From: a virus
Taxonomy: Duplodnaviria > Heunggongvirae > Uroviricota > Caudoviricetes
Direction: 5' to 3' (one strand)
DNA length: 5,043 nucleotides
Virus record (IMG/VR): IMGVR_UViG_2671180454_000012
Position 1 is the first letter of the stretch; each line of letters opens with the position of its first letter. Shown piece by piece: positions 4,515 to 4,745 of this stretch. Below the pieces are notes generated by a model. That model worked only from the letters and a program-made list of their open reading frames with translations, was not told the DNA's origin and did no database searches. Both the position numbers and the translations under genes were made by a program.

Positions 4515-4745
4515 CCTTCACCTGTTCACCTTTTGCAATTTTCCCTTTTTATTCATGATGTTAATGGGTTAACAGTTTCACAAAAACTATTCACCAACTG
4601 TTCACCACTGTTCACCCTTAAAGCTCAATAAAGAATCAAAAAGGTGAACAGTGAATAGTTTGGTGAACAGTTCATAAATAACTGTTCACCCTATAATATA
4701 CTGATATAAAAGACATTTATTGCAGGGTGAACAGTGGTGAACAGT
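4515..4745. repeat. Iteron array, candidate replication origin or cis-replication region
   Basis: Perfect TGTTCACC at 4523, 4599, 4609 and 4683; perfect GGTGAACA (reverse orientation) at 4643, 4662, 4726 and 4736; degenerate copies TATTCACC at 4589 and GTGAATAG at 4653. Adjacent copies sit 10 bp apart. An AT-rich tract (4488-4512) lies beside it. TGTTCACC is, from memory, the type I iteron bound by P4 alpha protein. Confidence 0.7.

What the first reader, a model, noticed from the sequence alone, without database searches (positions are those of the whole stretch)
4515..4745. P4-type iteron origin: at least 8 TGTTCACC octamers in both orientations at 10-bp spacing, flanked by an AT-rich tract and a TATAAT box
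The octamer recurs far more than chance allows in 230 bp and matches what I recall as the alpha-binding type I iteron of satellite phage P4 ori and crr. The array sits between the 3' end of the candidate initiator gene and the 81-aa/SSB operon. A TATAAT at 4692-4697 is embedded between iterons, so initiator binding may also control transcription.
Basis: partly seen in the sequence, partly recalled or inferred. Interest (0 to 1): 0.6.

Follow-up and report, generated by a model that had tools for sequence, protein, structure and literature searches.

The report
Replication origin of a phage satellite
This is the replication origin of a small phage-parasitic island (a PICI): twelve binding sites for the neighbouring initiator protein, using the same 8-base site as satellite phage P4. 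It is a clear but ordinary example of a known kind of origin.

Summary
All eight exact TGTTCACC copies in the window lie in 4523-4743 (chance expectation 0.17). With four degenerate copies they make a 12-site array at 4515-4743, inside a 67% A+T intergenic region.

- **P4 link:** the octamer equals the annotated P4 'ori type 1 repeat'. The last 80 residues of the adjacent minus-strand gene match the solved P4 alpha origin-binding domain (1KA8, E 2e-22).
- **Element type:** it is not P4-like. Relatives, including a complete 10.8-kb circular copy, are EcCICFT073-type PICIs: int, alpA, pri-rep, ori, then ssb in some copies, and a capsid gene. That replicon type has been shown experimentally to work.
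- **Layout:** complete relatives have one iteron cluster, directly 3' of pri-rep. P4's split ori plus crr arrangement is absent.
- **Architecture:** two inverted modules, each [2 sites, 35-bp A+T spacer, 1 inverted site, 3 sites]. The pri-proximal module is colinear with P4 ori. About 80 Enterobacterales loci share this layout, with three iteron alleles that track a segment of the binding domain.
- **TATAAT box:** it lies in the least stable duplex stretch, has no -35 and is not conserved. It more likely belongs to an unwinding element than to a promoter.

Verdict: a new member of a known kind, of low to moderate interest.

The parts
4774..5043 (-). 3' end of the initiator gene (pri-rep, P4-alpha-like). 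It encodes the C-terminal winged-helix origin-binding domain. The stop codon is at 4774-4776 and the gene continues beyond the window.
   Evidence: PDB 1KA8 (P4 alpha origin-binding domain), E 1.9e-22, residues 3-82. Pfam Pox_D5, D5_N and DUF5906 in the full-length relative. 48% identity to P4 alpha over helicase plus binding domain.
4746..4773 (.). A+T-rich leader (75% A+T) between the pri stop codon and the first iteron. No terminator hairpin.
4726..4745 (-). Iterons 1 and 2 (counted in the gene direction): two tandem ACTGTTCACC decamers with exact octamers at 4736-4743 and 4726-4733.
   Evidence: Same pair as P4 9413-9396.
4691..4725 (.). 35-bp A+T-rich spacer (77% A+T) that contains the TATAAT at 4692-4697. 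It holds the least stable 20-mer of the region (starting at 4692). Candidate DNA unwinding element.
   Evidence: Equivalent 35-bp spacer in P4 ori. Among the most A+T-rich positions across 49 aligned loci. TATAAT not conserved.
4683..4690 (+). Iteron 3: a single copy, inverted relative to iterons 1 and 2.
4643..4669 (-). Iterons 4-6: exact at 4662-4669, truncated TATTCAC at 4651-4657, exact at 4643-4650.
   Evidence: Colinear with the P4 triple at 9338-9310.
4617..4642 (.). Central 26-bp spacer (77% A+T). This is the dyad centre between the two inverted modules.
4588..4616 (+). Iterons 7-9: exact at 4609-4616 and 4599-4606, TATTCACC at 4588-4595. Mirror image of iterons 4-6.
   Evidence: (inverted repeats I3, I8, I10, I11)
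4567..4574 (-). Iteron 10: TGTTAACC (one mismatch; exact TGTTCACC in relative L002). Mirror image of iteron 3.
4531..4566 (.). Second long A+T-rich spacer (36 bp, 75% A+T). Mirror image of 4691-4725.
4515..4530 (+). Iterons 11 and 12: exact at 4523-4530 and degenerate CCTTCACC at 4515-4522. Mirror image of iterons 1 and 2.
4471..4514 (-). A+T-rich tail and ribosome-binding region upstream of the 81-aa gene. It contains a tract (about 4485-4512) that is conserved across all three iteron classes. Function unresolved: weak promoter or a second unwinding tract.
   Evidence: No consensus promoter on the - strand.
3806..4470 (-). Downstream gene pair: an 81-aa protein (PHROG 1231, unknown function) and a single-stranded DNA-binding protein. 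An accessory part of the replication module, absent from one complete relative.
   Evidence: Same order in EcCICFT073. Absent from the circular copy L086.

Best explanation
Window 4515-4745, within the intergenic region 4471-4773, is the vegetative replication origin of an EcCICFT073-type phage-inducible chromosomal island inserted between clpS and cspD.

**Proposed mechanism**
1. The initiator is encoded immediately upstream on the - strand. It is a P4-alpha-like SF3 helicase with a C-terminal winged-helix origin-binding domain.
2. It binds twelve TGTTCACC-type iterons arranged as two inverted modules. Each module reads [pair, 35-bp A+T spacer, one inverted site, triple], and the two modules face each other across a 26-bp A+T centre.
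3. Initiator molecules accumulate on the phased sites and melt an A+T spacer. The likeliest is 4691-4725, the least stable segment.
4. The helicase then loads, plausibly one hexamer per module, for bidirectional theta replication of the excised circle.
5. The island's own SSB may coat the unwound strands.

**What is shown and what is inferred**
- Shown here: the sequence anatomy, the homology of site and binding domain to P4, the single-cluster layout, and the conservation of the architecture.
- Taken from the literature: P4 alpha's domain organisation (DnaG-type primase, SF3 helicase, winged-helix domain, PMC2777425). That alpha binds type 1 iterons is from my own knowledge of Ziegelin et al. 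1993. That an EcCICFT073 pri-ori fragment is a working replicon is from PMC6092414.
- Inferred: the melting site, double-hexamer loading, and the source of primers. The initiator in this lineage lacks alpha's Toprim primase domain.
For: 1. Eight exact and four degenerate iterons are confined to 230 bp; 0 of 200 shuffles reach this count.
2. The octamer is identical to the annotated P4 type 1 repeats.
3. The adjacent gene's C-terminus matches the P4 alpha origin-binding domain, 1KA8, at E 1.9e-22. The full-length relative carries D5_N, DUF5906 and Pox_D5 domains and is 48% identical to alpha.
4. Gene order matches EcCICFT073 (pri, ori, small ORF, ssb, capsid). The 288-bp gap after its pri gene shows the same site pattern with allele TGTCTACC. 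That paper places the origin immediately 3' of pri-rep and showed that a fragment carrying pri and the origin supports plasmid maintenance only when both pri and ori are intact (PMC6092414).
5. Most of 80 Enterobacterales loci encoding this binding domain have the cluster within about 300 nt 3' of the gene, and none has a second cluster within 7 kb.
6. Iteron columns are more conserved than spacer columns (0.92 against 0.72).
7. Three iteron alleles go with differences in the presumed wing segment of the binding domain.
8. A 10,790-bp circular record with the same gene set and one cluster of 9 exact iterons was assembled as a separate replicon.
9. There are no DnaA boxes in the region, which fits a self-contained initiator.
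Against: - No experiment exists on this allele.
- The window contains only the last 89 codons of the initiator, so its integrity here is unknown.
- The island looks partly decayed: the protease/capsid fusion gene is broken by a 13-nt deletion.
- Four of the twelve sites are degenerate.
- The P4 precedent needs two separated cis elements, so one cluster being sufficient rests on the EcCICFT073 experiment, which used a different iteron allele and a Pri only 48% identical.
- The source of primers is unexplained, because the N-terminal domain in this lineage has no recognisable primase fold by sequence.
Confidence: 0.85

Rival explanations
1. The array is a crr-like auxiliary element: an enhancer that must pair with a true origin elsewhere. 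That is the role of the P4 element occupying the same position just 3' of alpha.
For: P4 crr lies directly 3' of the alpha gene (4291-4590, with alpha at 4636-6969) and carries the same iterons. The window shows only part of the island.
Against: Complete relatives have no second cluster. The 10.8-kb circular copy has one cluster plus one stray octamer. L002 has one cluster. None of the 80 loci has another cluster within 7 kb. The pri-proximal half of the array is colinear with P4 ori, not with the crr unit. EcCICFT073 pri plus this region is sufficient for replication (PMC6092414).
Confidence: 0.04
2. The array is mainly a transcriptional operator. Initiator binding controls a promoter (the TATAAT at 4692-4697 or a promoter for the 81-aa/SSB operon), and replication initiation is secondary or absent.
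For: A TATAAT hexamer lies between iterons. The last iteron pair abuts a conserved A+T tract just upstream of the 81-aa gene. Autoregulation through iterons is common in plasmids (general knowledge).
Against: The consensus scan finds no promoter on the - strand, and the one + strand site is not above chance (1 found, 1.8 expected). The TATAAT has no -35, points antisense into pri, and is not conserved (GTTAAT in relatives). One complete relative lacks the 81-aa/SSB genes but keeps the full array. Twelve sites in a dyad of about 230 bp is far more than an operator needs.
Confidence: 0.05
3. The array is an origin by descent but is now inactive: a relic in a decaying island.
For: A 13-nt deletion splits the protease/capsid fusion gene. 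Four iterons are degenerate. One site (4567-4574) that is exact in relative L002 is mutated here.
Against: The degenerate positions are mostly also degenerate in intact relatives, so they belong to the family pattern. Eight exact copies match the count in L002, L005 and L008. The visible part of pri is an open frame with an intact binding domain.
Confidence: 0.06

Closest known systems
Replication origin of Gram-negative PICIs, prototype EcCICFT073 (Fillol-Salom et al. 2018, ISME J, PMC6092414)
   Same: Position immediately 3' of pri-rep. Same gene order: int, alpA, Icd-like, DUF4222, pri, ori, small ORF, ssb, capsid. Same pattern of iteron positions and orientations, with only part of the pri-distal module detectable in CFT073. 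Two sets of iterons around A+T-rich DNA, as that paper describes. Pri shares the same N-terminal domain and is 48% identical overall.
   Different: The iteron allele is TGTTCACC here and TGTCTACC in CFT073. The origin-binding domain is closer to P4 alpha (about 55% identity) than to CFT073 Pri (under 40% by eye over the same stretch). The capsid module here is a ClpP-protease/capsid fusion rather than capsid plus decoration protein. The insertion site is clpS-cspD rather than roxA-phoQ.
Satellite phage P4 ori (ori1) with type 1 iterons, bound by alpha
   Same: Identical octamer, and mostly an identical decamer, ACTGTTCACC. The pri-proximal module (window 4745-4643) is colinear with P4 9413-9310: pair, 35-bp A+T spacer, inverted single site, 12-13 bp, triple. 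The binding domain is homologous (1KA8) and so is the SF3 helicase.
   Different: P4 has one module, about 2.3 kb upstream of the alpha gene, plus three type 2 repeats, and it needs crr in cis. Here two inverted modules sit together directly 3' of the gene, with no type 2 repeats and no distant partner. The initiator in this lineage lacks the Zn-ribbon/Toprim domain.
P4 crr (cis replication region, 2 x 120-bp direct repeats)
   Same: Same position relative to the initiator gene (directly 3') and the same iterons. The crr unit [-][+ + +] 35 bp [- -] resembles the central part of the array.
   Different: crr consists of two direct repeats separated by 60 bp. The window array is a single dyad of inverted modules.
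SaPI origins (Staphylococcus aureus pathogenicity islands)
   Same: The origin lies 3' of the rep gene, with iteron sets flanking A+T-rich DNA, and initiator and iterons come in allele-specific pairs (as summarised in PMC6092414; the rest is my own knowledge).
   Different: Unrelated iteron sequences, and an initiator too diverged to be treated as the same family. The resemblance is analogous organisation only.

Membership tests
P4-type replicon (P4-like satellite: alpha + ori + crr) | Type 1 iteron TGTTCACC in multiple copies and both orientations | tested here: met
   8 exact copies in the window. Identical to the P4 repeats annotated in X51522.
P4-type replicon (P4-like satellite: alpha + ori + crr) | Initiator with alpha-type C-terminal winged-helix origin-binding domain | tested here: met
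   1KA8, E 1.9e-22, 80 aligned residues.
P4-type replicon (P4-like satellite: alpha + ori + crr) | Initiator with SF3 helicase core (D5_N / DUF5906) | tested here: met
   Met in relative L002, which is 93% identical in DNA where it overlaps the window. The window itself is cut before this part of the gene.
P4-type replicon (P4-like satellite: alpha + ori + crr) | Initiator with N-terminal Zn-ribbon + Toprim (DnaG-type) primase domain | tested here: not met
   Absent from L002, L003 and CFT073 Pri. P4 alpha scores for Zn_Ribbon_Prim and Toprim_3 in the same scan. This cannot be checked in the window itself.
P4-type replicon (P4-like satellite: alpha + ori + crr) | Two separated cis elements (ori and crr, about 4.5 kb apart) | tested here: not met
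   One cluster in the complete circular relative L086 and in L002. No second cluster within 7 kb in 80 loci.
P4-type replicon (P4-like satellite: alpha + ori + crr) | Type 2 decamer repeats next to the type 1 array | tested here: not met
   CTTTAARTGR with up to 1 mismatch gives 2 hits, neither in the array, and no more than chance.
P4-type replicon (P4-like satellite: alpha + ori + crr) | P4 hijacking genes (sid, delta, psu) in the element | tested here: not met
   The annotation of relatives L002 and L086 shows none. They carry a ClpP-protease/capsid fusion instead. Judged from annotation only, with no dedicated HMM search.
Gram-negative PICI pri-rep/ori module (EcCICFT073 type) | Origin immediately 3' of the pri-rep gene | tested here: met
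   The first iteron starts 31 nt after the stop codon.
Gram-negative PICI pri-rep/ori module (EcCICFT073 type) | Two sets of iterons flanking A+T-rich DNA | tested here: met
   Two inverted six-site modules around a 26-bp centre of 77% A+T, each with an internal 35-36-bp A+T spacer.
Gram-negative PICI pri-rep/ori module (EcCICFT073 type) | PICI gene order: int, alpA-type regulator, pri-rep, ori, morphogenesis genes; size about 10 kb | tested here: met
   Shown for relatives L002 and L086 (10,790 bp) and for CFT073. The window shows the pri 3' end, ori, ssb and capsid part, plus the chromosomal junction next to clpS.
Gram-negative PICI pri-rep/ori module (EcCICFT073 type) | pri plus ori sufficient for autonomous replication; island induced and packaged by a helper phage | not testable with these tools
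   Shown only for EcCICFT073 (PMC6092414). Indirect support: a relative was assembled as a separate circular 10.8-kb replicon.

The most novel reading that the evidence does not exclude
**Reading 1: ancestral layout.** The compact 12-site dyad directly 3' of the initiator gene is the ancestral origin layout for all P4-alpha-type SF3 primase-helicases. It persists whichever N-terminal priming domain the initiator carries. It loads two hexamers head to head, as in papillomavirus and SV40 origins. On this reading, P4's textbook split into ori and crr is a derived rearrangement of one such dyad.

**Reading 2: cross-talk.** This PICI lineage and P4 share both the iteron and a binding domain about 55% identical. 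P4-like satellites and these PICIs in one cell could therefore fire, or titrate, each other's origins.
Probability: 0.3. Interest if true: 0.45.

Novelty: new member of a known kind. Interest (0 to 1): 0.27.

Why it matters
The region is unannotated in the public records that hold it, which list 'none' under the match. Marking it lets the island's replication module be annotated correctly.

The comparison adds three modest points:
- One PICI lineage uses exactly the P4 iteron and a P4-like binding domain. This points to module exchange between two satellite families usually treated as only distantly related, and to possible replication cross-talk or incompatibility between them.
- The 12-site dyad is conserved across about 80 Enterobacterales loci, three iteron alleles and at least three different N-terminal domains. 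By that measure P4's ori/crr split is the exception.
- The iteron allele tracks a short segment of the binding domain, which gives a natural data set for studying winged-helix specificity.

None of this overturns current understanding.

Tried and rejected
- **Literature search for the octamer.** It returned only unrelated primer sequences, and no paper combines the octamer with 'iteron'.
- **Rfam.** Nothing in the window reaches a gathering score, so a known RNA is not the explanation.
- **Promoter and terminator scan of 3640-5043.** It found one + strand promoter-like site, not above chance, and no terminator between pri and the array. I therefore dropped the TATAAT operator idea. The scan also missed an obvious hairpin plus U run after ssb that is visible by eye and, so it is not exhaustive.
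- **DnaA boxes.** None in the region.
- **P4 type 2 repeats.** None.
- **N-terminal domain of the lineage's Pri.** No PDB or Pfam match. Only PHROG families of unknown function, or a generic 'DNA primase' family.
- **crr homologue.** Considered and rejected, because the pri-proximal module is colinear with P4 ori and no partner cluster exists.
- **Packaging (cos/pac) site.** I ran no direct test. The match of the repeats to a known initiator-binding site, next to a homologous binding domain, makes it unnecessary.

Full report
**1. Observation**

The window contains eight exact TGTTCACC octamers, all between 4523 and 4743. Four are on each strand. Dinucleotide-preserving shuffles of the window give a mean of 0.17 copies and at most 2.

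Allowing one mismatch adds TGTTAACC at 4567-4574 (-) and TATTCACC at 4588-4595 (+). Reading the sequence and the repeat output adds CCTTCACC at 4515-4522 (+) and a truncated TATTCAC at 4651-4657 (-). That makes twelve sites.

Seven of the eight exact copies extend to ACTGTTCACC.

The intergenic region 4471-4773 is 67% A+T, against 52% and 43% in the flanking genes. TATAAT is present at 4692-4697 on the + strand.

**2. Surroundings**

All the real genes in the window are on the - strand. In order along that strand they are:
- the 3' end of a gene that runs off the window (5043 to 4774);
- the array;
- an 81-aa ORF (4470-4225; PHROG 1231, unknown function);
- an SSB gene (4228-3806);
- a 75-aa ORF;
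- a ClpP-type prohead protease and an HK97-like capsid gene;
- a 93-aa ORF.

The last 80 residues of the truncated gene match the solved origin-binding domain of P4 alpha (PDB 1KA8) at E 1.9e-22.

Seventy-four complete E. coli genomes hold a copy covering at least 80% of the window; the best are about 90% identical. In the best hit (L002) the gene is a 605-aa 'DNA primase family protein'. It carries D5_N, DUF5906 and Pox_D5 domains. It is 48% identical to P4 alpha from residue 113 to 600, against alpha residues 290-776.

Its first ~112 residues are unrelated to alpha. They lack the Zn-ribbon and Toprim domains that alpha scores for in the same scan.

**3. What kind of element**

In L002 the island sits between clpS and cspD. 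Its genes run int, HTH regulator, Icd-like, DUF4222, pri, array, 81-aa ORF, ssb, protease/capsid fusion.

This is the gene order of EcCICFT073, which I located in CFT073 between roxA and phoQ. There the order is int, HTH, Icd-like, DUF4222, pri, a 288-bp gap, an 85-aa ORF, ssb, PerC, capsid, decoration protein.

Fillol-Salom et al. 2018 (PMC6092414) state that in Gram-negative PICIs the origin lies immediately 3' of the replication initiation gene, with two sets of iterons flanking A+T-rich DNA. They showed that a plasmid carrying EcCICFT073 pri and ori is maintained only when both are intact.

A 10,790-bp circular E. coli record deposited as a plasmid carries the same gene set and an origin region 93% identical to the window's. 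This fits a free circular form of such an island.

**4. Comparison with P4**

The P4 record annotates TGTTCACC as the 'ori type 1 repeat'. There are six exact copies at ori (9310-9413). There are five exact and five one-mismatch copies in crr (4291-4590), which lies directly 3' of the alpha gene.

Read in the direction of the initiator gene, the window array is:

[+ +] 35 bp [-] 13 bp [+ + +] 26 bp [- - -] 13 bp [+] 36 bp [- -]

The first half is colinear with the P4 ori array read on its minus strand: a pair of ACTGTTCACC-type decamers, a 35-nt A+T spacer, an inverted single site, 12 nt, then a triple. The second half is its mirror image.

P4 has only one such module at ori. Its crr units read [-][+ + +] 35 bp [- -]. 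P4's type 2 repeats are absent from the window.

In complete relatives there is only one cluster: the circular 10.8-kb copy and L002.

**5. Family-wide picture**

A scan of one genome per species, using an alignment of the C-terminal 200 residues, returned 80 Enterobacterales loci. Most have a cluster of iterons within about 300 nt after the stop codon. None has a second cluster within 7 kb.

Three iteron alleles occur:
- TGTTCACC: P4, this window, Klebsiella, Pectobacterium, Xenorhabdus.
- TGTCTACC: CFT073, E. ruysiae, Kluyvera, Enterobacter, Scandinavium.
- TCTCCACC: Yersinia, Rahnella, Serratia, Erwinia.

All three alleles show the same positions and orientations of sites.

The alleles go with differences in a short stretch of the binding domain just after the conserved EYGxEY motif, presumably the wing. 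Most TGTCTACC loci have a PDKGR insertion there, and TCTCCACC loci have a one-residue insertion. CFT073 reaches TGTCTACC without the insertion, so the correlation is not a simple code.

In an alignment of 13 TGTTCACC-class origins, iteron columns are more conserved than spacer columns inside the array (0.92 against 0.72).

The N-terminal domain of the initiator varies independently of the iteron allele:
- P4-type Zn-ribbon/Toprim in 813-aa Xenorhabdus and Photorhabdus proteins. One of these islands is int, alpha, ori and defence cargo.
- The PICI-type domain in E. coli, Klebsiella and Kluyvera.
- At least one further type.

The compact dyad is therefore the rule for this initiator family, and P4's split arrangement is the exception.

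**6. How it most likely works**

The initiator's winged-helix domain recognises the iterons. This rests on homology to P4 alpha. PMC2777425 summarises alpha's domain organisation as DnaG-type primase, SF3 helicase and winged-helix domain. That alpha binds the type 1 iterons is from my own knowledge of Ziegelin et al. 1993.

Occupancy of the phased sites should destabilise an A+T spacer. The least stable 20-mer of the whole region starts at 4692, inside the 35-bp spacer. Across 49 aligned loci the two 35-bp spacers are among the most A+T-rich parts of the array (78-94%), whereas the centre is only moderately A+T-rich.

The mirror symmetry suggests one helicase hexamer per module and bidirectional replication. 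That is inference.

There are no DnaA boxes. Who makes the primers is open for this lineage.

**7. The TATAAT box**

The box sits in the spacer just described. The scan finds no -35 partner. It would fire antisense into pri. In more distant relatives it is replaced by GTTAAT. I read it as part of an unwinding element, not a promoter.

No consensus promoter for the 81-aa/SSB genes and no terminator after pri were found. Read-through from pri is therefore plausible.

An A+T tract just after the last iteron pair (about 4485-4512) is conserved in all three allele classes and remains unexplained.

**8. Verdict**

The refinement is that this is the standard origin of an EcCICFT073-type PICI, using the P4 iteron allele. 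It is not a P4-like replicon with ori and crr.

It is a new member of a known kind. The comparative points (a dyad of two P4-ori-like modules, three alleles, shuffled N-terminal domains, possible cross-talk with P4) are modestly interesting and testable.

Noticed in passing
window 1047-1175 and 3663-3791: A 129-nt direct repeat, 71% identical. On the - strand each copy begins just after a gene stop (capsid fusion stop at 1180; ssb stop at 3806). Each starts with a terminator-like hairpin plus U run, followed by a conserved G+C-rich segment (CCUGGUGGGGG...CCUGUCCACGGGGCGGG). Fold z-scores are -3.7 and -2.6. Rfam has no match. It could be a repeated terminator/regulatory cassette between the island's operons.
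   Followed up: partly
window 1180-3047 (about 1982): The ClpP-like prohead protease/major capsid fusion gene is one 629-aa ORF in E. coli relative L002. In the window a 13-nt deletion splits it into two overlapping frames, so it is probably a pseudogene and the island may be decaying.
   Followed up: yes
L002 18348-18683 (- strand), outside the window; also L085 27242-27600: The Pri-Rep of this PICI lineage replaces P4 alpha's Zn-ribbon/Toprim primase with a ~112-residue N-terminal domain. That domain has no Pfam or PDB match and is well conserved between L002 and CFT073 by eye. Whether it primes DNA synthesis is unknown. Across 80 loci, N-terminal domain types are shuffled independently of iteron allele.
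   Followed up: partly
window 4485-4512 (- strand: TTAAAATGCAAAAATTTTATTTTATT): An A+T-rich tract immediately after the last iteron pair is conserved across all three iteron allele classes (for example CTTAAAAGCATAATTTATTTTTT in Yersinia). It could be a weak promoter for the downstream genes that overlaps iterons 11-12, or another unwinding tract.
   Followed up: partly
L086 (NZ_CP148328.1, 10,790 bp, circular): A complete copy of this PICI type is deposited as an E. coli 'plasmid'. It has int, AlpA, pri, the iteron array and the capsid fusion, but no 81-aa/SSB genes. This suggests an excised, possibly replicating form captured by assembly.
   Followed up: partly
L057 5177-14055 (Xenorhabdus yunnanensis): A minimal island: an integrase, an 813-aa alpha-like primase-helicase and the same dyad origin, followed by defence cargo (SMODS/AGS_C with a SLATT effector, and an ABC-3C-type gene). 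Xenorhabdus genomes carry several such islands each.
   Followed up: partly
window 3486-3637: A run of 152 N (masked or unsequenced stretch) between the 75-aa ORF region and the ssb terminator. Nothing can be said about its content.
   Followed up: no
window 1-285: The left end of the window matches the chromosomal region next to clpS found in nearly all E. coli genomes (5425 of 5426 have a match). Several relatives align only from about 285 or about 400 onward, so the island's left junction may lie about 285-430. The attachment-site repeat was not mapped.
   Followed up: no
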